A DNA stretch of 64,000 nt from Dendrobates tinctorius (Eukaryota): NCBI RefSeq assembly GCF_039654945.1, contig NW_027361698.1, positions 22,382,001 through 22,446,000 on the forward strand. The letters are read 5' to 3'. The notes beneath the pieces are model-generated. The model was not told the DNA's origin and searched no databases. It saw only the letters and a program-made list of their open reading frames with translations. Shown here piece by piece: positions 6,294 to 54,110 of this stretch; within the stretch, counting starts at the first letter, position 1, and each line of letters begins with the position of its first letter. A program made the translations under genes and the position numbers.

Positions 6294-6654
6294 GGCCGGG
6301 GTCACATTAGCATATATTATCTGATGTGAGCATCGGATGCGATACGCTAATTGCACTCAGCTCAAACTCTGCTGCGAGTGTGAGCCAAGTGTCACCTTAC
6401 TGTGATACGATTTTCTCACATGCGAGAATCGGATCACAGGTGAGGAGAAGAAGGAGAGATTAATCTCTCCATCTTTTCTGTGCAATATAGGCTGCCAATC
6501 AAAGCATGTTGTGATTTTTTTTCTTTTCATGCCAAATCAACATGAGAAAAAAATCGCAGATCTGCTCTGCCTCACTGAATAATGCTGGTCATAGTGAAAA
6601 ATGTAATTTTCTCACATTGCATTCTTTGTATTATACGCCAGTGTGAGCGAGCCC
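6294..6654. mobile_element. Degenerate Harbinger-type MITE abutting the autonomous element
   Basis: Termini GGCCGGGGTCACA / TGTGAGCGAGCCC; TSD not clean. Confidence 0.55.
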
Positions 6655-7030
6655 TGAGGCTGGTTTCACATTTGCGTTTTTTAGCGCTGGAAAAAAACGC
6701 ATACGTGCGCATGCGATTTTTCCCCTATATTTAACATGGGTGCGCATACCTGCGCACTTGTAAGCGCATGTATGCGATTTTCATGCGCTGCGTTTTTTTG
6801 GGGTGTGCGTTGGTATTTTCCAGACGCTGCATGTTGCATTTTTTGGCCCTTGAAAAAATCGCATGCGCACGTATGCGCACGTTTTGCGCTAAAAATGGCC
6901 ATTATAGCCTATGGATGCGCATACGTGCGCACTGGCATGCGCAGGTATGCGCTTTTTTAGCGCAGCGTTTTTTGGGTGGTGTCCACTTTTTATCCTAGTT
7001 AGAATCTTCTAAAGTCCAAAAAAAAAAGGC

Positions 7031-7038
7031 TATATAAA
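7031..7038 (+). promoter_or_regulatory. Putative TATA box of the MADF gene
   Basis: TATATAAA upstream of a putative non-coding first exon (donor GTGAGT at 7128, acceptor CAG ending 7202). Confidence 0.55.
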
Positions 7039-7203
7039 GGAGGTGCCTGCCAAAACTCTGCCACTACTACACTAGACAGATTGAAGAGCAGACATTCAAC
7101 CAAGAACCCATTATATCAGCGAAGAATGTGAGTATATTACATTATATGCCTGTCCTTTTAAATTATGTATGTACTAATGATTTTTATTATTTTTACATGC
7201 AGT

Positions 7204-10200
7204 ATGTCTTCAGAATCAGAGTATTCCCCATCGCGGCAGGAATTGGCGCAAGCAGACCGTGAGGTGATTATTTTCGTGCATCTGGTAAGTATATCTGCTG
7301 CTTCTCCAAATCTCTTACGTTTTTTTCAACTTTCAGACATCGTCATCATCATCTGCGGACGGGAATAGTGAGGGCGAACAGCAGGAGCAGCGAAGCCAAG
7401 TCCCGGTGGTGATACGTAATGTAAGTATCAAATGATTTGTAATGTTTTTTTTTTTTTTTTATCTTCTATTTTTACTCTTTTTTTTTTTTCTTTTTTTGTA
7501 ACTTTTTAGTCAATTTAAATTTGATTATTCTAATGAATGTGTTTTGTCTAGGTTCCACAACGGGATGAAGACGTCTACCTGGATAATGAGCAGCTCATCA
7601 GCCTGGTCCAGGAGCGTTCGCCGTTGTGGGACAGCCGTGACCGGCTGTACAAGGACAATGTGGTGACACGGCGGCTATGGAATGAGGTGGCCACAGCGTT
7701 GATGGATGGCTGGGACAGCGCCACAGCATCCGCCAAAAAGGCGTTTAGTGAGTATTTCCCTGCTCTGTATTGTGCCGCAGTGACTGTTGTCCTTGACGGC
7801 ACTGTTGGGTTTCGTGCTAGGCGTATTCTAGCAGGAAACCCAACAGTGTCATCGTGGTCTACAGTGACTGCTTTGAGTATTGTATTGCTACATTGTGCCG
7901 CAGTGACTGTTGTCCTTGACGGCACTGTTGGGTTTCGTGCTAGGCGTATTCTAGCAGGAAACCCAACAGTGTCATCGTGGTCTACAGTGACTGCTTTGAG
8001 TATTGTATTGCTACATTGTGCCGCAGTGACTGTTGTCCTTGACGGCACTGTTGGGTTTCGTGCTAGGCGTATTCTAGCAGGAAACCCAACAGTGTCATCG
8101 TGGTCTACAGTGACTGCTTTGAGTATTGTATTGCTACATTGTGCCGCAGTGACTGTTGTCCTTGACGGCACTGTTGGGTTTCGTGCTAGGCGTATTCTAG
8201 CAGGAAACCCAACAGTGTCATCGTGGTCTACAGTGACTGCTTTGAGTATTGTATTGCTACATTGTGCCGCAGTGACTGTTGTCCTTGACGGCACTGTTGG
8301 GTTTCGTGCTAGGCGTATTCTAGCAGGAAACCCAACAGTGTCATCGTGGTCTACAGTGACTGCTTTGAGTATTGTATTGCTACATTGTGCCGCAGTGACT
8401 GTTGTCCTTGACGGCACTGTTGGGTTTCGTGCTAGGCGTATTCTAGCAGGAAACCCAACAGTGTCATCGTGGTCTACAGTGACTGCTTTGAGTATTGTAT
8501 TGCTACATTGTGCCGCAGTGACTGTTGTCCTTGACGGCACTGTTGGGTTTCGTGCTAGGCGTATTCTAGCAGGAAACCCAACAGTGTCATCGTGGTCTAC
8601 AGTGACTGCTTTGAGTATTGTATTGCTACATTGTGCCGCAGTGACTGTTGTCCTTGACGGCACTGTTGGGTTTCGTGCTAGGCGTATTCTAGCAGGAAAC
8701 CCAACAGTGTCATCGTGGTCTACAGTGACTGCTTTGAGTATTGTATTGCTACATTGTGCCGCAGTGACTGTTGTCCTTGACGGCACTGTTGGGTTTCGTG
8801 CTAGGCGTATTCTAGCAGGAAACCCAACAGTGTCATCGTGGTCTACAGTGACTGCTTTGAGTATTGTATTGCTACATTGTGCCGCAGTGACTGTTGTCCT
8901 TGACGGCACTGTTGGGTTTCGTGCTAGGCGTATTCTAGCAGGAAACCCAACAGTGTCATCGTGGTCTACAGTGACTGCTTTGAGTATTGTATTGCTACAT
9001 TGTGCCGCAGTGACTGTTGTCCTTGACGGCACTGTTGGGTTTCGTGCTAGGTGTATTCTAGCAGGAAACCCAACAGTGTCATCGGGGTGTACAGTGACTG
9101 CTTTGAGTATTGTATTGCTAAATTGTGAAGCAGTGACTGTTGTACTTGACGGCACTGTTTTTTTTTTATCAACAGTGGACAAAGTCCGAACACGTTGGCG
9201 TTCGATCAAGGACCGCTTCAACAGTGATGTTCGTGCTGAGGGCCAGGTTCGCAGTGGATCTGCGTCAAGGACCAGAACTAGATACCGTCACTATCACGCG
9301 TTGCAGTTCCTAAGACCGGTCCTTGCCACAAGATCGTAAGTATTATACATTTTGGGTTTTTATTTTTATTAATCTGTGTTTTTCTAATCCACAGCTGATG
9401 CTTCTTGTAAAGGCATGGTAGTAATGATTTTCCTTTCTTCCACAGCACCTGGAGCAGCACCCTGCAACCTGGCCCTGGAGCGGTCCTTCGTCGGACGTCC
9501 TCTGACCCGTCCCAGCCATCCGACAGCCAGGAAGCACCTTGCAGGTCCCACACACACACAGCTGGTGACCAGGAAGCTGGGCCATCAGGTGTTCCCCTGT
9601 CCCAGGTCTCTGCCACTGGTTATGCGGGCACTACCCGCCAGCGGCAGAGGGCCTTGGACAGGAATGTCTTGCCCGAGTTTATGCATTTGAGCGAGACATT
9701 TAATTCCAGCCTCAAGTCACTGTCCGACAGAGTTGAAAGCGGTTTTGCACTGATGGAACGTGGTTTTAACCACTTTGAACACCGCTTCAATTCTGTAGAA
9801 CAGCGCCTTGACCGTCTGGAGGCCGACCTCAACAGACCAGCACACCATTTTTTTAGTAAGATTGAAAAGGGCATGGCGGAACACCTTAGTCCTGATCAAC
9901 AGCTGAATGTGCTGCAGGCCTGCAACAATGCTTTCTTGCAGGCTATGCAGCATAATCGGTACGGTCAGCAGTCAGTGGTGTCCTTTCCACCTGTGCCACC
10001 ATTGACTCGCTTCACCTCACTACCGACTTGTGCTGCATACCACTGCACGGACACCTCTCTTCAAAGGCTGGACACCCACCGTTACACCACCACAAGTCTG
10101 AGTGCAGCTGGTCACTTCACCGACACCACCATGGCAAGCGCTGCTCCTGTCTGGAGCACCACCGCCAATCCCATGCATGCGTGGAGCTCAGCCACCACTA

Positions 10201-10958
10201 GGCAAACATGGAACAGCCCTGCCGCTACAACAACATGTAGTAGCCCTGCCACCACCACTCTGCAAACCTGGGCCATCACTGCCGCCACCAGTCCTCCTGC
10301 AAGGACGAGCACTGACCAAGAAGAGCAGCATCAGCCACCTCAGCAGCAGCAGCCAACTCAGCAGCCGCCACCTCAGCAGCAGCAGCCACCTCAGCAGCAG
10401 CCGCCACCTCAGCAGCAGCAGCAACCACCTCAGCAGCAGCCGCCACCTCAGCAGCAGCAGCAACCACCTCAGCAGCAGCAACCACCTCAGCAGCAGCCGC
10501 CACCTCAGCAGCAGCAGCAACCACCTCAGCAGCAGCAACCACCTCAGCAGCAGCTGCCACCTCAGCAGCAGCCGCCACCTCAGCAGCAGCCGCCACCTCA
10601 GCAGCAGCCGCAACCTCTGCAGCAGCAGCCGCCACCTCAGCAGCAGCAGCCATACCAGCAGACGGGGGACCTACATTCCATATTTGCCCCTACTTCAAGG
10701 CGAAATCAATCAAGGCGGGCATTGGGCCAAAGTCGGTCCAGGCACACAAGCCTACGGCGACATGCCATTACAACTAATGTAACTGAACAGATTTCCTCTC
10801 CTACAAGTGTTCCAAGTTTAATTCCCTTAACTGGACTACCTTCCCCCACAAGTTTTGTTGCCCCTTCCCCTCAAACACCGTCTTCAACTGCAAGTGTTGC
10901 ATATTCCCTGCACACCCCCAAATTGAAACCATCTGCCCCCAAACGCCGTAAAAAATAA
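7204..10958 (+). CDS. Harbinger MADF/Myb-SANT-like DNA-binding protein, ~670 aa; exons 7204-7263, 7337-7420, 7552-7747, 9176-9335, 9446-10958
   Basis: GT-AG introns with matching phases (2013 nt total). MADF signature LISLVQERSPLWD...RRLWNEVA...VRTRWRSIKDRF. Coiled coil, BESS-like HHFFSKIE..M.EHLSPDQQL, polyQ/P tract, terminal PKRRKK. AATAAA at 10986. The first two exons are the least certain. Confidence 0.85.
7769..9159. repeat. 123-bp tandem array (11 full units plus a partial) in the intron splitting the MADF domain
   Basis: Units start 7769, 7892, 8015 ... 9122 and are nearly identical. Each has the inverted repeat CACTGTTGGGTTTC / GAAACCCAACAGTG. Confidence 0.97.
10325..10652 (+). repeat. 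Coding CAG/CCR-rich repeat (Gln/Pro tract)
   Basis: Repeated CCACCTCAGCAGCAG(CAG)n, translating to PPQQQ(Q)n. Confidence 0.95.
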
Positions 10959-11087
10959 TTTTTAAATTTTTTTTTTGTGATAAAAAATAAATTTACATTT
11001 GTGGTTCACCATTAATAAGTTTCATTAATGTTGTTTGCGCCGCTCACACACACTGATGGGTAAATACATGTTAAAAACCAACCCAAG

Positions 11088-12488
11088 GGCTAGTATAGTC
11101 ATATGTGAAATAACATGGACTAGTATAGTCATTCAAAGGCCTAGTGTAATAACTCTAGTTTTACCAAATAGAATCTGGTTTCATGAAAAACAAATTGTTG
11201 AAACTTGTCTAAAAAATAAAGTTTCTTTCTAGTTTCACCACTTTGTTTTTGGTGAAACAAGATGCTAGTTGTTTAAAATGCTAGTTGTTAAAAATCGAGT
11301 TATTACAGTAGGCCTTGGTATGACTATACTAGGCCGTGGTATTTCACATATACTACTAGCCCCAAGGCCTAGTATACTCATATTTGAAATACCACGGCCT
11401 AGTATAGTCATTCCAAGGCCTAGTGTAATAACTCTAGTTTTACAAAATAGAATCTGGTTTCATGAAAAACAAACTGTTGAAACTTGTCTAAAAAATAAGT
11501 TTCTTTCTAGTTTCACCAGTTTGTTTTTGGTGAAACAAGATGCTAGTTGTTAAAAATCGAGTTATTACAGTAGGCCTTGGTATGACTATACTAGGCCGTG
11601 GTATTTCACATATACTACTAGCCCCAAGGCCTAGTATACTCATATTTGAAATACCACGGCCTAGTATAGTCATTCCAAGGCCTAGTGTAATAACTCTAGT
11701 TTTACAAAATAGAATCTGGTTTCATGAAAAACAAACTGTTGAAACTTGTCTAAAAAATAAGTTTCTTTCTAGTTTCACCAGTTTGTTTTTGGTGAAACAA
11801 GATGCTAGTTGTTAAAAATCGAGTTATTACAGTAGGCCTTGGTATGACTATACTAGGCCGTGGTATTTCACATATACTACTAGCCCCAAGGCCTAGTATA
11901 CTCATATTTGAAATACCACGGCCTAGTATAGTCATTCCAAGGCCTAGTGTAATAACTCTAGTTTTACAAAATAGAATCTGGTTTCATGAAAAACAAACTG
12001 TTGAAACTTGTCTAAAAAATAAGTTTCTTTCTAGTTTCACCAGTTTGTTTTTGGTGAAACAAGATGCTAGTTGTTAAAAATCGAGTTATTACAGTAGGCC
12101 TTGGTATGACTATACTAGGCCGTGGTATTTCACATATACTACTAGCCCCAAGGCCTAGTATACTCATATTTGAAATACCACGGCCTAGTATAGTCATTCC
12201 AAGGCCTAGTGTAATAACTCTAGTTTTACAAAATAGAATCTGGTTTCATGAAAAACAAACTGTTGAAACTTGTCTAAAAAATAAGTTTCTTTCTAGTTTC
12301 ACCAGTTTGTTTTTGGTGAAACAAGATGCTAGTTGTTAAAAATCGAGTTATTACAGTAGGCCTTGGTATGACTATACTAGGCCGTGGTATTTCACATATT
12401 ACTATACTACTAGCCCCAAGGCCTAGTATACTCATATTTGAAATACCACGGCCTAGTATAGTCATTCAAAGGCCTAGTGTAATAACTT
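11088..12488. repeat. 262-bp tandem array (~5.3 units) between the two convergent Harbinger genes
   Basis: ATGCTAGTTGTTAAAAATCGAG recurs at 11278, 11540, 11802, 12064, 12326. Each unit contains a ~53-bp inverted repeat. Confidence 0.97.
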
Positions 12489-12855
12489 TTAATGGAGCAG
12501 ATTACATTCATCCACTCAATGCTGACTTGTATTCCCCATGGACTTTCATTGGGGTTGGGTTTTGAGTGTTGTGTTTTGAGAAAATCACATACTTTGTTTT
12601 AAACTATTTGCACAATTTTATCTTGAAAAAAAATGGTTTCCTGATTCATGGCCTGCAGCTTTGCTCATTCCAATATATTTAACGCAGACTAGCAATGCTG
12701 CATTTTAACTCGTATGTGTATTTACCTGCCCAGGTGTGTGAACATAACAAAATTCAGTTATACATGGGAAGTTTTTTAATTAATCGGAGTTTAAAAAATA
12801 TAGTGCACTCAGTAATGGTATCAAATAAGGATTTTTATTACCATAAACAACAACA

Positions 12856-14243
12856 TTACACCATTTCATCTTGCCAGTGCACCCGTCCTACATCAGAAAT
12901 AAAGTAGGCCGCAAATTTGTCCCTCATTTGGCCAACTTCAACGGATGACCTGAGAGTGTGCTGAGTGAATTCAGGCAATGGGTTAGGAGCATCATCGTCC
13001 AGTTCAAAGGTCGGGTGCTCTTTAGCCATCACAAAGTTATGTAGAACCACACAGGCCTTCACCACCTCATCGACTGTTTCAAGTTTAAGATTAATGGCCG
13101 TGCCCAGAATTCGCCATCTGGAAACAAGAATCCCAAAAGCACACTCGACAGTTCTTCTGGCCCTGGTCAGCCTGTAATTAAAAATTTTTTTGGTGTGGTC
13201 CAAGTCCCGGCTGGAGTAGGGTTTCAGTAAGTTTCCGCACATTTGAAAAGCCTCATCGCCAACCATTACAAAGGGCAGTGGCGGAGCTTCGGTGTGAGGA
13301 AGAGGCCGTGGCATAGGGAAATTAAATTGGTTGCCATACAACCTCCGGCCCATGTCTGAGTTTTTAAAAGCCTGCGAGTCATTACCACGGCCAAATGCTC
13401 CAATGTCCACTGCTACAAACATACATCCGGCATCCGCAATTGCAATGAGTACTATTGAAAAGTACTTTTTGTAATTATAGTACTCAGATCCCGTTCTTTG
13501 GGGTTTGATGATCCGTATGTGTTTCCCATCAACAGCTCCCAAACAGTTGGGAAAATTGCATACTGTCCAGAATTTGTCAGCAATTTCCATCCACTTTTCA
13601 GCGGTGGGCAGGGGCATAAATTCTGGGCAAAGAACATTCCAGAGAGCCCGGCAGGTGTCAGCAACAATTCCAGACAAGGTAGAGATTCCAATACGGTACT
13701 GGAAGTGTAGTGAGGATAGGGTTTCTCCAGTCGCCAGGAATCTGTGAACAGACAAAGAAGTAAAATTAATATTTATGTATATTATTTTTAAAAACTATAA
13801 AAAAAATATTAGTACATTCACGAAAACTAATTACCCAAGGTTTTGAATACTAAATTTACAAAAAAAAACATCAGACCACACCCCTTTGTTTTTAAAACAT
13901 ACCGTAATGTCACCAGTAGCCGTTCCTCAGGAGGAATCGCACGACGGAGCTGTGTGTCCTGTCTCCGGATGGATTGTTGGACACGAGCAAGCAAATCCAT
14001 GAAACTTTCGTGGGACATCCGGATATAATCAGTAAATTTCTCCGGGTTTGCACGTAGCTCGCTGTAGAGGGTGTGGTATGCCCCACGGCTCTCCCGGAGT
14101 TCAACAATCGGATGTATCCACAAACGCCGCCGTCTTCGCTGCCTCTCTCTCTTCCTTTGTTCATGGCAAGCAACTGCATACGCCTGAGCCATCGCGATGT
14201 CCAAATCCAAGTTGAAGTGAAAACTCTTCCAGCGCAGATCCAT
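12856..14243 (-). CDS. Harbinger DDE transposase (HARBI1-like, DDE_Tnp_4 family), 408 aa; exons 14243-13903 and 13741-12856
   Basis: Splice joins VTL-R-FLATG (donor GTATGT, acceptor TTCACAG). Catalytic motifs GAVDGKH, VGDEAF, RRTVECAFG intact. TATA-like site ~14292-14299 and AATAAA (minus) at 12834-12839. Confidence 0.95.
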
Positions 14244-14710
14244 GGTCACGAGAAGAATCAAGCAAATGTGAAGAATACTGTAGACAGGGTGTATATATAT
14301 TAACATACCACACCCACAATGAAGTCCCATTGGTCTTGTGTGTTGTTGAATGGTTGTTTTTTCTTTTTTGTGGGGTTTTTCCAAAATCTGTAAAAAAACG
14401 CAAACGCACAAAAAACGCATACAAACGCGCAAAAACGCTGCGTTTTTTTCCTGCATGCGCATTAAAATGCTGGAAAAAAACGCAGCGTTTGTATGCATTT
14501 GTATGCGTTTTTTTAATGCGTTTTTTTGCGGGAAAAACGCGCTGCAAAAAAAAGCAAGTGTGAAACTAGCCTGATAGTGTAAATTTGCTACTTTTTTGTT
14601 TTACGGACAAAGTTACATGAATTTTCTCTTGTATTGTGGTCTCTGATATCAGTGTACTCATGGAGGGACTTATCAGGGTCTATGATTGCTGCCACTAAAA
14701 ATTAATATGA

Positions 14711-43260: not shown

Positions 43261-45714
43261 TGATACCCCATATGTGGGAGAAAACTACTGTATGGGCCCA
43301 CGTCGGGGCTCGGAAGGGAAGTAGTGACATTTTGGAATGCAGATTTTGATGGAATGGTCTGCGGGTGTCATGTTGCCTTTGGAGATCCCCTAATGTATGT
43401 AAACAGTGGAAACCCCCCACAAATGACACCATTTTGGAAACTAGACCCTCTAAGGAACTTATCTAGATGTGTGGTGAACACTTTGAACCCCCAAGGGCTT
43501 CACAGAAGTTTATAATTCCCGGGCGTGAAAATAAAAAAATCATATTTTTTCCACAAACATGATCATTTAGTCCCCAATTTTTTAAATTTCCCAAGGGTAC
43601 CAGGAGAAAATGGACCCCAAAAGTTGTTGTCCAATTTGTCCTGAGTACCCTGATACCCCATATGCGGGAGAAAACTACTGTATGGGCCCACATCGGGGCT
43701 CGGAAGGGAAGTAGTGACGTTTTGGAATGCAGTCTTTGATGGAATGCTCTGCGGGTGTCATGTTGCCTTTGGAGAGCCCCTAATGTACCTAAACAGTGGA
43801 ACTCCCCACAAGTGACCCCATTTTGGAAGCTAGACCCCCCCACGGAACTTATCTAGATGTGTGGTGAGCACTTTGAACCCCCAAGGGCTTCACAGAAGTT
43901 TATAATGCCCGGGTGTGAAAATAAAAAAAATCATATTTAATTCCCACAAAAATGATATTTTTGCCCCCAAATTTTTATTTTCCTAAGGGCAACAGGAGAA
44001 ATAGGACCCCAAAAGTTGTTTTGCAATTTATCCTGAGTACCCCATATGTGGGGGTAAAACACTGTTTGGGCGCATGGCAGCGCTTGGAAGAGAAGGAGCA
44101 CCATTTGACTTTTTCAATGCAGAATTGGCTGGAATTGAGATCAGATGCCATGTTGCATTTGGAGAGCACCTGATGTGCCCAGCAGTGGAAACTCCCCAAT
44201 TCTAACTCCAACCCTAACCCCAACACACCTCTAACCCTAATCTCAGCCCTAACCCTAGACCCAACCCTAGCCCTAGCCCTAACCCTAGCCCTAGCCCTAA
44301 CCCTAATGGGAAAATGGAAATAAATACATTTTTTTTAATTTTATTATTTTTCCCTAACTAAGGGGGTGATAACGGGGGGTTTGATATACTATTTATGGCG
44401 GTTTTTATTTTTGGCAGCTGTCACACGCTAAAAGACGCTTTTTATTGTAAAAATAGTTTTTGCATCACCACATATTGAGAGCTATAATTTTTCCATATTT
44501 TGACCCACTGAGTCATGTGAGGTCTTATTTTTTGTGGGACGAGTTGACGTTTTTATTGGTATCATGTTTGGACATGTGACATTTTTTGATCGCTTTTTAT
44601 TCCGATTTTTGGGACGCAGAATGAACAAAAACCAGCATTTCATGAATTTCTTTTGGGGGGGTGCGTTTACAGCGTTCTGCATGCGGTAAAATTGATAAAG
44701 CGATTTTATTGTTCGGGTCAGTACGGTTATAGCGATACCTCATTTATGTCTTTTTTTATGTTTTGGCGCTTTTATGCAATAAAAACAATTTTATATAAAA
44801 AATAATTATTTTTGCATCGCTTTAATCTGCGAGCTATAACTTTTTTATTTTTTCTCTGATGATGCTGTGTGGCAGCTCATTTTTTGTGGGATAAGATGAC
44901 GTTTGATCGCGTGTTATTGCACTTTTTGTTCGGCAGTATGATAATAAATCATTATTTTTTGCTTCGTTTTTTATTTTTATTTTTTAAGGGGTTCGCTAAA
45001 GGGGTTAACTAATGGGAAAGTTTTATAGGGCAGGTCGTTACGGACGCGGCGATACCAAATATGTGTACTTTTACTGTGGTTTTTTTTTTTTTATTTCCAA
45101 AAAATGAATTTATTAGGGAATATTTTTTTTTTAAATTTATTTAGCGATTTTTAAAAAAATAATTTTTACACTTTTTCTTTTTTAACTTTATTAGGTTGTC
45201 CCAGGAAGGACATCACTGTCCTGTGACAGATCGCTGATGACAGATCAGCAATCTGTCACAGGCAGTACAGAAGGCTTCCTCATGCCTGCGCTTTGCAGGC
45301 ACTGAGGAAGCCAGCTCCCTGCAGGCCCCCGAAGGTCCCCGTCGCCATCTTGGATCCGGGGACCTGCAGGGAAAGAGCCCCCCGCAGCAGCGCTGCACAT
45401 TGCGCTGCTGTGGGCAGCTCAGGAAAGCACGGAGGGAGCCCCCCTCCCTACCGATGATTCCCTTTAACCCCCTGTACACCGCGATCATGTTTGATCACGG
45501 TGTGCAAGGGGTTAACGTGTCGGGGGCGGTCTGTGACTGCCCCTGACACATAGTGCCGGGTGTCAGCTGTGATAATCAGCTGACACCCGGCCGCGATCAG
45601 CGGCGCTCACCAAGTGGGCGCCGCTGATCGCCCTAGACGTACTATCCCGTCCATGGGCATAGGGGCCCGGGTCCCATGGACGGGATAGTACGTCTGATCT
45701 CAGAAAGGGGTTAA
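43261..45714 (+). mobile_element. Right part of a large piggyBac-like (TTAA) non-autonomous element with a 390-bp internal duplication and CCCTAA repeats
   Basis: TGATACCCCATATG at 43261 and 43651; (CCCTAR)n at 44200-44306; ends AAAGGGGTTAA. Confidence 0.65.
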
Positions 45715-47186
45715 GGCTTATAAAGCGGCAAAATGTACGCAAGAAGATATAGTACTCTACGGATGAGCAATATAGTACTGATACATTTTTCAACAAGTTT
45801 CTTGAGAGTTATATGCTAAGGAAATGTACTCCATATCACGGAATAATCTATAGGTGAGCATTATAATACAATACATTTTTTACCAAGGTTTTTGAGACTT
45901 TTATGGCAAATAAATGTACCCAGGAAGATATAATACCCTGCAGGTGAGCAATATGATACCAATAATTTTTAAACAAGTTTTTGAGGCTTATATAACAGCT
46001 AAATGTACCCAAGAAGATGTAATACACTATGGGTGAGCAATATAATACCGATAAATTTTTTACCATGTTTGTTGAGGTTTTGATACCAACAAAATGTACC
46101 ACGTATCAGAGAATAGTCTATAGTAAGAATGATAATATAGATACATTTTTTACCAAGTTTTTTGTGGCTCTTATAGCAACAAAATTTACTAAAGAAGATG
46201 TAATACCCTGTGGGCAAGTAGTATAATACCAATAAATTTAAACAAGTTTTTGGAGGCTTTTATAGTGAATAAATGTACCCAAGAAGATGTAATACCTTAT
46301 GGACGAGCAGTATGATACCAATAAATTTTGAACAAGGTTTTGAGTTTTATATAGCAAGAAAATGTACCCAAGAATATATAATACCCTATGGATGGGTAAT
46401 ATAATATTGATACATTTTTTCGACAAGTTTCTTGAGGGTTGCATACCAACCAAATGTACTCAATACCACGGAATAGTCTATGGGTGAGCAGTATATTACC
46501 GATAAATTTTTTAACAAGTTTTTTGAGGGTTTTATAGAAACATAATCCACCCAAGAAGATGTAGTACACTATGGGTGAGCAATATAATATCAATACATTT
46601 TGAACAAGTTTTTAGAGGATTTTACAGCAACGAACTATACCCAAGAATATGTGCTACCCTATGGGTGAGCAATATAATACCGATACATTTTTAACCATGT
46701 TTTTGAGGCTTTGATACCAACGGAATGTACTTCATACCAGAGAATAGACTATAGGTGAGCATTATAATACAGATTCATTTTTTACCAAGTTTTTTGTGGC
46801 TTTTATAGTAACAAAATGTACCAAAGAAGATGTTATACCCTGTGGGCGAGCAGTATAATACAGATAAATTTGGAACAAGTTTTTGGAGGTTTATACCGTA
46901 TAGCGACTAAATGTACCCAAGAAGATGTAATACCCTATGGATGAGCAATATGATACCAATAAATCTTGAACAAATTTTGGAGCCTTATGTAGCAACAAAC
47001 TGTACCCAAGAAGATGTAATACCCTATGGATGAGAAATCTAATAATGATAAATTTTGAACAAGTTTTTTTGAGGGTTATATGCCAAGGAAATGTACTCAA
47101 GACCACAGAATATTCTATGGTTGATCAATATAATAACAATAACACTTTGAACAATGTACTCCAAAACACGGAATAGTGTATGGGTA
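45715..47186. repeat. ~89-bp AT-rich satellite (~16 units); displaced pieces at 36325-36460 and 40051-40180
   Basis: Recurrent AAATGTACCCAAGAAGATGTAATACCCTATGGGTGAGCAATAT. Confidence 0.9.
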
Positions 47187-49744: not shown

Positions 49745-50730
49745 ACAAAGTAACATTGTATGTCTGAGAAATGAAGGCCTACAAAATTTTTAAAAACTTT
49801 TTAGCAGTTTTACAGACCACAGAAATATTCCCAGACCAAGTAACACTGTATCTCTGAGAAATGGAAGCCTGCAACATTTTGAAAAGCTTTTTACCAGTTT
49901 AAGAGATCACATAAATGTTCACAGATCACATAACACTGTATGTCTGAGAAATGGAGGCCTACAAACTTTTTTAAAGCTTTTTAGCAGTTTTACATATCAC
50001 AGAAATGTTCACAGACTACATAACACAGCATATATGAAAAATGGAAGCCTTCAAAATTTTTAAAAGATTATGTTCACATTTATAGATGACAGAAATGTTC
50101 ACAGTCCACATAATACTGTATGTCTGAGAAATGGAAGCCTACAAAATTTTTAAAAGCTTTTGTTCACTTTTAGAGATCTCAGAAATGTTTGCAGACCATG
50201 TAACACTGTGTGTCTGAGAAATGGAAGTGTACAAAATTTTTAAAAACTTTTTAGCAGTTTTACAGACCACAGAAATATTCACAGACCAAGTAACACTGTA
50301 TCTCTGAGAAATGGAAGCCTGCAACATTTTTAAAAGCTTTTTAGCAGTTTAAGTGATCACATAAATGTTCACAGACCACATAACACTGTATGTCTGAGAA
50401 ATGGAGGCCTAAAAACTTTTTTAAAGCTTTTTAGCAGTTTTACACATCACAGAAATGTTCACAGACTACATAACACTGCATATATGAAAAATGGAAGCCT
50501 TCAAAATTTTTAAAAGATTATGTTCACTTTTATAGATCACAGAAATGTTCACAGACCATGTAACACTGTGTGTCTGAGAAATGGAAGTGAACAAAATTTT
50601 TATAAGCTTTTTAGCAGTTTTGCATATCACAGAACTGTTCATAGACCACGTAATACTGTATGTCAGAGAAATGGTAGCCTGAAAATTTTTTAAACGCTTT
50701 TGTTCACTTTTAAAGATCACAGAAATTAAC
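49745..50730. repeat. 90-bp satellite (11 units) with 450-bp higher-order periodicity
   Basis: GAGAAATGG recurs every 90 bp; variant units at 49841/50291 and 50021/50471 match. Confidence 0.92.
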
Positions 50731-53519: not shown

Positions 53520-54110
53520 CTTCAGCACTTGAATTAGGCCCTCCAGTTGTTCCCTCCAAGGGTGTATGGATGACCATCCTTTTATTTTTTTCTGGCTTTG
53601 CACTGTGTGCAGGGCCTTTATGAGTCCAGAAGCACCACATCTACAATTCCTTAATTTTTTAATGAGGCATTCCAGTTGGTGCCTTAGAGGGTGTATGGAT
53701 GACCTTTTTTTTCTGGGTTTGCACTTTGTGCAGGGCCTTTATGAGTCCAGAAGCACCACATCTACAATTTCTTAATTTTTTAATGAGGCACTCCAGTTGG
53801 TGCCTTAGAGGGTGTATGGATGACCCTTTTTTTTCTGGGTTTGCACTTTGTGCAGAGCCTTTATGAGTTTTATGAGTGCAGAAGTACCACAACTACACTT
53901 CATATTTTTATGAGGCACTCCAGTTGGTGCCTTCAGAGGTGTATTCATGACCCTCCTTATAATTTTATTCTTGCTTTGCATTGTGTGTTTAGACTTTGAG
54001 TGTAGAAGTACCACAACTACACTTTCTTAATTTTTTTTACAAGGCCCTTCAGTTGGTACCTTGTAGGGTGTAGAGATGACCCTGCTTGTAATATTTGGCA
54101 GGCTCTGCAC
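53520..54110. repeat. ~122-bp tandem repeat (~4.7 units) downstream of the outer hAT transposase
   Basis: GAGGCACTCCAGTTGGTGCCTT recurs at ~53664, 53785, 53912 and 54042. Confidence 0.85.

What the first reader, a model, noticed from the sequence alone, without database searches (positions are those of the whole stretch)
11088..12488. Array of ~53-bp-stem hairpins between the two convergent polyA sites
Each 262-bp unit has GTTATTACAGTAGGCCTTGGTATGACTATACTAGGCCGTGGTATTTCACATAT paired to a downstream arm with 3 mismatches, plus short hairpins (TTTCACCA/TGGTGAAA). It lies just past AATAAA of both genes (10986 plus, 12834 minus), so read-through from either side gives tandem dsRNA stems. With the intronic array, one young transposon holds two independently amplified hairpin arrays. 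This suggests either a built-in termination or small-RNA module, or hairpin-driven amplification during gap repair that seeds satellites.
Basis: partly seen in the sequence, partly recalled or inferred. Interest (0 to 1): 0.72.

Follow-up and report, generated by a model that had tools for sequence, protein, structure and literature searches.

The report
Fold-back repeat riding a frog transposon
A jumping gene with about 1,900 copies in this frog genome carries, between its two genes, a fold-back DNA repeat whose unit number differs from copy to copy; it likely arose from a DNA-copying error at an old inserted mini-transposon and is likely a passenger that changes length when the transposon is copied, not a working RNA signal.

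Summary
The array is real. It lies between the two convergent genes of a 7.9-kb PIF/Harbinger transposon with about 1,900 copies in this genome. Each unit is a whole ~85% palindrome: a 123-bp segment plus its inverted copy. Relatives show how it was likely built. A palindromic mini-transposon inserted in the gap, a small inverted triplication formed at its edge, and the doubled unit then expanded in tandem (0-9 units in 121 copies). Unit number differs as often between near-identical copies as between older ones, and copy-private mutations stay in single units. Length therefore likely changes when the element is copied (gap repair), not with time. Hairpins are not needed for this, because a non-palindromic coding repeat varies too. 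Evidence against a terminator or small-RNA module: four old copies lack the hairpin, stems erode with almost no compensation, there is no G-U bias, and four of eight Harbinger families have no hairpin there. No stand-alone arrays were seen. Still open: four of eight families hold unrelated hairpins in this gap, against 7.5% of flanking windows. The scan had not noted this before.

The parts
6658..14571 (.). Full-length autonomous PIF/Harbinger DNA transposon (family F1, my label), 7,914 bp, flanked by TGA on both sides (6655-6657, 14572-14574)
   Evidence: Ends read from the sequence; about 1,927 left array junctions in G000; 120 further copies fetched
6658..6682 (+). Left terminal inverted repeat, about 25 bp, followed by subterminal repeats
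   Evidence: Alignment of the two ends
14547..14571 (-). Right terminal inverted repeat
7552..10958 (+). MADF (Myb/SANT-like) gene from the first MADF-domain exon to the stop; domain split by the intron 7748-9175; last exon about 9447-10958; upstream exons not mapped
   Evidence: Pfam PF10545 in both exon pieces, E 1.8e-06 and 1.4e-05; ORF list
7769..9159 (.). Intronic array of 123-bp palindromic units, 11.3 copies here, 2-22 unit starts in other copies; not homologous to the intergenic unit
10324..10652 (+). Gln/Pro-coding 18/21-bp direct repeat, used as the non-palindromic control; its length also varies between copies
10986..10991 (+). AATAAA 28 nt after the MADF stop; its use as the poly(A) signal is not shown
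11087..12487 (.). The finding: array of H-H' palindromic units (11087-11365, 11366-11627, 11628-11889, 11890-12151, 12152-12419) and a 68-bp tail (12420-12487)
11366..11488 (+). Segment H in unit 2: 68 bp of native gap sequence plus about 55 bp from the left arm of the inserted mini-transposon
   Evidence: 94% match to the single H of L133; alignment to L170 and to the stand-alone copy in the L090 flank
11509..11624 (-). Inverted copy H' in unit 2, followed by CAA and the next H
12491..12679 (+). Decayed centre and right arm of the same ~310-bp palindromic mini-transposon
   Evidence: Alignment to the stand-alone copy
12834..12839 (-). AATAAA 17 nt after the transposase stop; its use is not shown
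12856..14243 (-). Transposase gene, 408 codons: exon 14243-13903, intron 13902-13742, exon 13741-12856
   Evidence: PF13359 DDE_Tnp_4, E 5e-27; 161-nt GT..AG joint in contigs of 3 of 4 runs laid on copy L096, mapped back to the window by hand

Best explanation
The array is a variable-number tandem repeat inside a Harbinger transposon; it likely arose by a small inverted triplication at the edge of an old inserted mini-transposon, likely changes unit number when the transposon is re-synthesised during gap repair, and is likely a passenger without a required function. Steps: (1) shown - the nearest outgroup copy L170 has one proto-H and a ~310-bp palindromic mini-transposon in the gap. (2) Inferred - one template switch copied about 156 bp as direct, inverted, direct. 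(3) Shown - the flanking direct copies make H-H' a tandem unit, present 0-9 times, with subfamily-specific loop deletions (296, 273, 268, 262, 249, 240 bp). (4) Shown statistically - unit number changes between copies but arrays are close to static after insertion. (5) Inferred - the change happens during homology-directed repair of the excision gap, which is how cut-and-paste elements gain copies.
For: Origin: L170 (transposase 93% identical, outside F1 in the rooted tree) has no inverted copy of H's first half. Its gap hairpin matches a stand-alone element in the L090 flank at 86% over 243 bp, and that element has identical 8-bp flanks. The 296-bp unit type has about 156 bp direct, a 26-nt loop and about 130 bp inverted, close to published small inverted triplications (148/160/148 bp, 30-bp spacer; PMC13334657). 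Inverted arms share one diagnostic core across subfamilies (307 identical among the 340 arms in the eight commonest haplotypes), so one origin. Timing: in 55 disjoint nearest pairs the difference in unit number does not grow with distance (rho 0.008, p 0.95); pairs differ in 8 of 12 at 0-2 substitutions per 4.6 kb, 19 of 26 at 3-15, 13 of 17 at 16-60. Copy-private substitutions lie in one unit rather than several: 42 to 1 in the intron array, 86 to 10 in this array. A clock-like turnover model predicts 57% in several units for old intron arrays; 0 of 16 were seen (P 1e-6, and 5e-4 at a quarter of the rate). No required function: L132, L133, L136 and L143 (4 of 23 old-tail copies) lack H' yet have intact ends and TNA flanks; variant states mostly break pairs (55 breaking, 14 and 11 wobble on either strand, 5 two-sided); Rfam 0. 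Precedent: VNTRs in Medicago PIF/Harbinger elements attributed to gap repair (PMC2213677).
Against: Four of eight Harbinger families here have a strong hairpin of unrelated sequence in the same gap, against 26 of 347 flank windows. In F1 the older mini-transposon hairpin decayed while the new one arose. No collapsed copy was found among copies with the young tail (0 matches genome-wide; about 16 of 20 copies have that tail), although collapse there needs only 68 bp of imperfect homology. Mean unit number rose from 1.4 in old-tail copies to 3.6 in young ones. Pairs with zero substitutions differ less often (9 of 20) than more distant pairs (about 73%), so some accumulation with copying steps or time exists. 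Ten private variants do sit in several units of this array (4 of them at junctions of direct duplications, 3 in one block duplication). Gap repair itself is inferred, not observed. The root of F1 is poorly supported (0.36).
Confidence: 0.65

Rival explanations
1. A long hairpin between the two convergent genes is selected, whatever its sequence: it would insulate the two 3' ends or turn read-through RNA into double-stranded RNA that tunes the element's own expression; the tandem amplification is secondary.
For: Hairpins of unrelated sequence in the gap of F1, F2, F3 and F4; 4 of 8 families against 7.5% of flank windows, binomial p about 0.002, about 0.012 without F1 (hand calculation). Contigs of runs with spliced transposase RNA cross both AATAAA sites up to or into the array (X18, X22). 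Five uninterrupted 27-bp helices on either strand. No collapsed young copy.
Against: F5, F6, F7 and F8 have no strong gap hairpin; in F6 the two AATAAA motifs lie about 40 nt apart. F6 and F7 carry palindromes and palindrome arrays upstream of the MADF exons instead, so they collect in any non-coding interior. Four hairpin-less F1 copies. Pairing falls from 121 paired and 8 mismatched in the oldest unit type to 100 and 16 here; only 1 G-U per strand among 16 mismatches; one common two-sided change. The families are related, so not independent trials.
Confidence: 0.15
2. The array is an ordinary unstable minisatellite: hairpins stall replication and units are gained and lost continually at each locus, independent of transposition.
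For: Strong folding. Published small inverted triplications are removed by polymerase slippage in E. coli (PMC13334657, section 2.6), which fits the hairpin-less copies. Zero-difference pairs differ less often than others.
Against: Differences do not grow with distance; private mutations are not spread between units; a non-palindromic repeat varies about as often.
Confidence: 0.12
3. The unit is itself a mobile miniature element, or the seed of a satellite, that has piled up in tandem and also spreads outside the transposon.
For: About 55 bp of each half-unit comes from a real mini-transposon; MITE-derived tandem repeats are known in Xenopus (reviews PMC12628747, PMC9659126).
Against: The unit's ends are not that mini-transposon's ends. 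The first 20 clusters of exact arm matches correspond one to one with the first 20 left junctions, and all 14 newly fetched clusters lay inside the transposon. 13,163 arm matches agree with about 11,900 plus or minus 1,100 expected from 1,927 elements. The largest array seen has 9 units.
Confidence: 0.05
4. The array, or its variation in unit number, is an assembly artefact.
For: Raw long reads could not be examined; near-identical units in about 1,900 copies are hard to assemble.
Against: Subfamily-specific unit types follow the tree; three duplicated loci with identical flanks have identical counts; private-variant density rises with copy age as it does outside the arrays; public runs hold the junctions.
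Confidence: 0.03

Closest known systems
MtPH-A6-4 PIF/Harbinger elements of Medicago truncatula with 60-bp VNTRs (PMC2213677; passages read)
   Same: Same superfamily; internal tandem repeats of variable number (2-35), tied to the element wherever found, absent from some copies (5 of 23), attributed to abortive gap repair.
   Different: There the repeats are subterminal and not described as fold-back units, and the timing was proposed, not tested. Here the unit is a whole palindrome between convergent genes, its origin is traced, and static-after-insertion was tested.
Small inverted triplications, DUP/IN/DUP (PMC13334657; abstract, sections 2.4, 2.6 and Discussion read)
   Same: Direct-inverted-direct layout, sizes near 150 bp, a spacer near 30 nt, and precise collapse back to one copy.
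   Different: Described as rare, unstable events in yeast rad27 mutants and cancer genomes. Here one is fixed in a transposon lineage, copied to about 1,900 loci and expanded into a VNTR. A FEN1 or Okazaki-fragment link is untested.
MITEs with internal tandem arrays: clam DTC84 (PMC3879986; passages), Xenopus Xmix/Xstir and miDNA4 (seen only through reviews PMC12628747, PMC9659126)
   Same: Short arrays with variable middle and fixed end variants carried by a DNA element; MITE-derived sequence in the unit.
   Different: Those are non-autonomous, and the Xenopus ones gave stand-alone satellites. This element is autonomous and no stand-alone array was found.
Galileo TIR extension by tandem repeats (PMC4168063; passages)
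   Same: Slippage and template switching during transposition and repair are invoked for repeat growth.
   Different: P superfamily; repeats lie within long terminal inverted repeats, not between genes.
Hairpin-RNA silencers of DNA transposons such as maize Mu killer (recalled, no call)
   Same: An inverted duplication in transposon sequence that could give double-stranded RNA.
   Different: Mu killer duplicates coding sequence at one locus and acts in trans. This hairpin holds no coding sequence, sits in nearly every copy, and no small RNA is shown.

Membership tests
PIF/Harbinger autonomous transposon (host element) | DDE_Tnp_4 transposase | tested here: met
   PF13359, E 5e-27; relatives named ALP1-like or HARBI1 by their sources
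PIF/Harbinger autonomous transposon (host element) | Second gene with a Myb/SANT (MADF) domain | tested here: met
   PF10545 in two exons
PIF/Harbinger autonomous transposon (host element) | Short TIRs and 3-bp TWA-type target duplication | tested here: met
   About 25-bp TIRs; TNA on both sides in 115 of 116 copies with both ends found, identical in 78
Small inverted triplication | Direct-inverted-direct layout with a single-copy ancestral state | tested here: met
   L137-type units and tails; single proto-H in outgroup L170
Small inverted triplication | Sizes near 150/160/150 bp, spacer near 30 nt | tested here: met
   About 156 bp direct, about 130 bp inverted, 26-nt loop at the inner junction; the outer spacer is only 3 nt
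Small inverted triplication | Junction microhomology of about 6 bp | tested here: inconclusive
   Only 4 bp (inner, with 2 extra bases) and 2 bp (outer), read; the junctions may have been remodelled since
Small inverted triplication | Formation at Okazaki-fragment ends or by FEN1 failure | not testable with these tools
   Needs replication mapping
hAT-type miniature element (remnant) | Stand-alone palindromic copy with TIRs and 8-bp target duplication | tested here: met
   One ~310-bp copy in the L090 flank with identical 8-bp flanks; 6 of 8 flank bases match in L170. That 8-bp duplications mark hAT is recalled
hAT-type miniature element (remnant) | Matching autonomous hAT partner | not tested
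   No search made
Functional structured RNA (pre-miRNA, hairpin-siRNA locus) | Compensatory changes and G-U tolerance on one strand | tested here: not met
   365 units: 55 breaking, 14 and 11 wobble, 5 two-sided variant states; 1 wobble per strand among 16 mismatches
Functional structured RNA (pre-miRNA, hairpin-siRNA locus) | Known RNA family | tested here: not met
   Rfam gathering threshold, 0 matches over 6600-14600
Functional structured RNA (pre-miRNA, hairpin-siRNA locus) | Transcribed through the stem | tested here: inconclusive
   Contigs of spliced-RNA-bearing runs reach or cover the array, but have no strand, and host intron RNA or DNA is not excluded
Functional structured RNA (pre-miRNA, hairpin-siRNA locus) | Processed small RNAs or A-to-I editing | not testable with these tools
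   Only contigs were served
Termination or insulator module of convergent Harbinger genes | Present in all families and required in cis | tested here: not met
   Absent from the gap in F5, F6, F7, F8 and from 4 old F1 copies
Satellite DNA | Long stand-alone arrays outside the element | tested here: not met
   unassembled blocks cannot be excluded

The most novel reading that the evidence does not exclude
Frog Harbinger transposons need, or gain from, a long hairpin of any sequence between their two convergent genes. They have acquired one four times from unrelated DNA (mini-transposon insertion followed by inverted triplication), replaced it when it decayed, and tune its dose by changing unit number at each transposition: a structure-only cis-module that renews itself through the element's own error-prone repair.
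Probability: 0.15. Interest if true: 0.75.

Novelty: new variant of a known kind. Interest (0 to 1): 0.42.

Why it matters
Even as a passenger, this is a natural experiment: about 1,900 copies, each with three independent repeat arrays that appear to change when the element is copied and then stay put. That makes the long-proposed link between transposon gap repair and repeat-number change testable in a vertebrate germ line. It also shows small inverted triplications, described as rare lesions in yeast mutants and tumours, being fixed and amplified by transposons, clearly in three families of one genome. If the hairpin in the gap proved selected, it would be a new cis-element for two-gene transposons.

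Tried and rejected
RNA levels: no holder was on record as RNA. Summed contig depth falls after both stop codons in X1 and after the transposase stop in X22, but contig depth cannot rank parts and no verified DNA run was available, so this is not used. The X22 joint from tail to first arm is a mapping ambiguity between direct repeats, not a collapsed copy. Other letters seen in contigs over the array include a known subfamily variant and show no A>G cluster; contigs drop rare variants, so editing is untested. Organism B's run X5 had almost no cover over H and none over the MADF end; absence in contigs is no evidence. Transversion excess among arm mismatches (14 of 16; p 0.005 against 47% transitions in close pairs) was dropped: fixed non-coding differences have only about 30% transitions, and hairpins pooled by hand show about 37%. 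A raw correlation of the two arrays' unit numbers in 61 young copies (rho 0.29, p 0.02) vanished in disjoint pairs. The idea that hairpin-less copies are the ancestors was rejected as likely: they are nested among hairpin-bearing copies. H and the intron unit are both 123 bp but not homologous. Midpoint rooting is wrong for a ladder tree and was replaced (FastTree, after iqtree failed to start). Paques et al. 1998 was not held. Look-ups of earlier scan findings gave one unrelated frog note and two bacterial palindrome notes; none was used.

Full report
1. Observation. The array is present as described, with corrections. It spans 11087-12487 as units of 279, 262, 262, 262 and 268 bp and a 68-bp tail. 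The quoted 53-nt arm has 3 mismatches with its partner and folds far better than shuffles (z -16.7). The whole unit is also a palindrome (z -19.1; 100 pairs, 16 mismatches, 24-nt loop). So the array is an alternation of a 123-bp segment H and an inverted copy H'. The two AATAAA motifs are at 10986 (+) and 12834 (-).

2. Host element. Window 6658-14571 is a complete PIF/Harbinger transposon: about 25-bp terminal inverted repeats, TGA on both flanks, a plus-strand MADF gene and a minus-strand DDE_Tnp_4 transposase. The second transposase exon is 100% identical to a protein that NCBI lists from Dendrobates tinctorius, and its nearest relatives are from poison frogs and toads. In G000 (6.36 Gb) the left array junction occurs 1,927 times, the window-type right junction 353 times and a 20-nt arm motif 13,163 times. 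The transposase intron is spliced in contigs of 3 of 4 runs laid, from three studies, so the family is transcribed.

3. Survey of copies. I fetched 120 copies of this family (F1, my label): 40 chosen by the unit itself, which cannot show zero units; 20 by the right junction and 20 by the transposase; 14 by the arm motif and 6 more by the transposase; and 20 by an old tail motif. With the window, inverted arms per copy were 0 in 5, 1 in 9, 2 in 23, 3 in 33, 4 in 36, 5 in 12, and 6, 7 and 9 in one each. One of the five zeros (L138) is a large deletion. The other four (L132, L133, L136, L143; 4 of 23 old-tail copies) have H without H', with intact ends and TNA flanks. L132 and L136 instead carry direct triplications of 98 and about 164 bp, and L141-L143 a 49-bp direct repeat. 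A pattern for a collapsed array with the young tail found 0 matches genome-wide. No stand-alone array turned up: the first 20 clusters of exact arm matches match the first 20 left junctions one to one, and the genome-wide arm count fits the number expected from elements alone (6.15 per copy in 20 position-ordered copies, about 11,900 plus or minus 1,100).

4. Origin. The nearest outgroup copy, L170 (transposase 93% identical), has one proto-H followed by a decayed ~310-bp palindrome. That palindrome matches a stand-alone element in the flank of L090 (86% over 243 bp) whose two flanks are identical 8-mers; 8-bp duplications mark hAT elements (recalled). H is 68 bp of native gap sequence plus about 55 bp of this element's left arm, and 12491-12679 is its centre and right arm. 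The longest unit type (296 bp) reads about 156 bp direct, a 26-nt loop, about 130 bp inverted, then direct again. This is the layout and size of small inverted triplications (medians 148/160/148 bp, 30-bp spacer; PMC13334657, sections 2.4, 2.6 and Discussion read), which that paper also shows collapsing precisely. Inverted arms share one diagnostic core across subfamilies, so I infer one event. Hairpin-less copies are nested among hairpin-bearing ones and are likely collapses; L133 and L136 share a branch (support 0.97), so their parent likely transposed without the hairpin. The root within F1 is weak (0.36).

5. When unit number changes. In 55 disjoint nearest-neighbour pairs (two duplicated loci and L138 left out, four pairs of 60 or more substitutions dropped) the difference in unit number is independent of sequence distance (rho 0.008). 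Pairs differ in 8 of 12, 19 of 26 and 13 of 17 cases at 0-2, 3-15 and 16-60 substitutions per 4.6 kb; for the intron array 9 of 12, 19 of 26 and 15 of 17. The two arrays change independently (rho -0.04). Against full saturation, only 9 of 20 pairs with zero substitutions differ. If arrays turned over continually, mutations private to a copy would spread between its units. They do not: 42 in one unit against 1 in several for the intron array, 86 against 10 for this array (L074, L128, L138, L150 left out; counts for old intergenic units are inflated by differing unit types). A simple clock-like simulation predicts 57% spread in old intron arrays against 0 of 16 seen (P 1e-6). So length likely changes at or near transposition. 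Homology-directed repair allows replicative transposition of mPing in yeast (PMC10288884, abstract), and gap repair was proposed for VNTR changes in Medicago Harbinger elements (PMC2213677, passages). Expansion and contraction of tandem repeats during break repair in yeast is recalled (Paques et al. 1998; not held). Hairpins are not required: the non-palindromic Gln/Pro repeat differs in 6 of 12 and 15 of 26 of the same pairs.

6. Is it a functional RNA or terminator? Rfam gives 0 matches. Among 365 units, variant states at paired positions break the pair in 55 cases, give a wobble in 14 (plus strand) and 11 (minus strand), and change both sides in 5, only one of them common. The stem is better in the oldest unit type (121 pairs, 8 mismatches) than here. 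Contigs of X18 and X22, which carry spliced transposase RNA, cross the MADF AATAAA up to or into the first arm; X18 contigs also cross the transposase AATAAA and cover 252 nt of a unit. They have no strand and may come from host introns or DNA, so read-through is possible but not shown. Small RNAs and editing were not testable.

7. Other Harbinger families in G000 (my labels; transposase identity to the window; 71 loci besides L170). F2 (85%), F3 (69%) and F4 (84-89%) have long gap hairpins of unrelated sequence. F4 repeats the F1 story: a mini-transposon-like core, a direct-inverted-direct layout, and a 368-bp tandem period in L166. F5 (54-57%), F6 (63-64%), F7 (47-51%) and F8 (61-62%) have no strong gap hairpin in the representatives tested (one each, three for F7). 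F6 and F7 carry palindromes and palindrome arrays upstream of the MADF exons, F6's again direct-inverted-direct, and several match elements found elsewhere in the fetched DNA. Four of eight families against 26 of 347 flank windows is an excess (p about 0.002; about 0.012 without F1, by hand), but the families are related and palindromes also collect elsewhere in these elements. This is the main reason to keep a selected hairpin open at about 15%.

8. What is known. VNTRs in PIF/Harbinger elements (PMC2213677), in MITEs (PMC3879986, passages; Xenopus cases through reviews PMC12628747, passages and first part of section 4, and PMC9659126, passages) and in Galileo (PMC4168063, passages) are described, as are small inverted triplications. 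Searches for Harbinger with palindromic tandem repeats in Xenopus, hairpins between convergent Harbinger genes, Harbinger internal tandem repeats (0 papers), Harbinger minisatellites in frogs and inverted triplication with transposon gap repair (0 papers) listed no description of this arrangement. Two listed papers were checked by passage and did not bear on it (PMC12676858; PMC13668399). Repeat-database reports and subscription journals are not in the library, and no supplements were read, so the family may be named elsewhere.

9. Verdict. A real feature and a new variant of a known kind: a fold-back VNTR born of a small inverted triplication, carried by a recently active transposon, with a traced origin and a tested timing. 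Passenger reshaped at transposition 0.65; selected hairpin module 0.15. Interest 0.42.

Noticed in passing
116 F1 copies with both ends found (L031-L150 and window): The two 3-bp flanks differ in 38 of 116 copies, nearly always at the middle base (22 TAA..TTA against 5 TTA..TAA), far more than mutation explains. This would fit element ends carrying a donor overhang into the target, in line with the staggered cut at the duplication proposed for mPing (PMC4561436, passages).
   Followed up: partly
window 7748-9175; L151 and L171 (MADF-domain intron): The same MADF intron holds a hairpin in F1/F4 (123-bp unit, amplified), F2 (about 80 bp) and F3 (about 125 bp, similar to the F4 mini-transposon core); F6, F7 and F8 have a short plain intron there.
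   Followed up: partly
L151-L162, gap between the genes: In F2 the gap hairpin encloses and abuts a TA microsatellite that reaches over 1 kb in some copies; L154 has a ~1.4-kb insertion there that looks like a Tc1-type transposon (label recalled).
   Followed up: no
L189-L196, L199-L202 and L203-L222, upstream of the MADF exons: F6 has a 470-bp 90-94% palindrome and 298-325-bp tandem arrays; F7 has arrays of 149, 181 and 325 bp with varying copy number, several palindromic.
   Followed up: partly
F1 tree: Mean unit numbers rise along the ladder: 1.4 and 4.3 (gap, intron) in 23 old-tail copies, 3.6 and 9.3 in 61 young copies. Drift in master copies or slow loss in old copies is not resolved.
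   Followed up: partly
L057, L084, L141, just outside the left end: A 1.1-1.4-kb non-autonomous relative (at least one end about 92% identical) sits directly beside the full-length element.
   Followed up: no
P0002, P0004, P0013, P0017, P0019, P0035, P0041: Several database proteins named after host genes contain the second transposase exon (seen directly for P0004 and P0019), and X1 has a loose end at the transposase splice acceptor: host exons may splice into this acceptor, or the gene models are wrong.
   Followed up: no
L073, L074, L128 (G000 C16, 41.06-41.40 Mb): One insertion lies in at least three duplicated segments with identical flanks and identical unit counts.
   Followed up: yes
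window 45714-47141, 49751-50726, 53585-54096, 43269-44198: Older tandem arrays of 90, 90, 121 and 390 bp elsewhere in the window; not examined.
   Followed up: no
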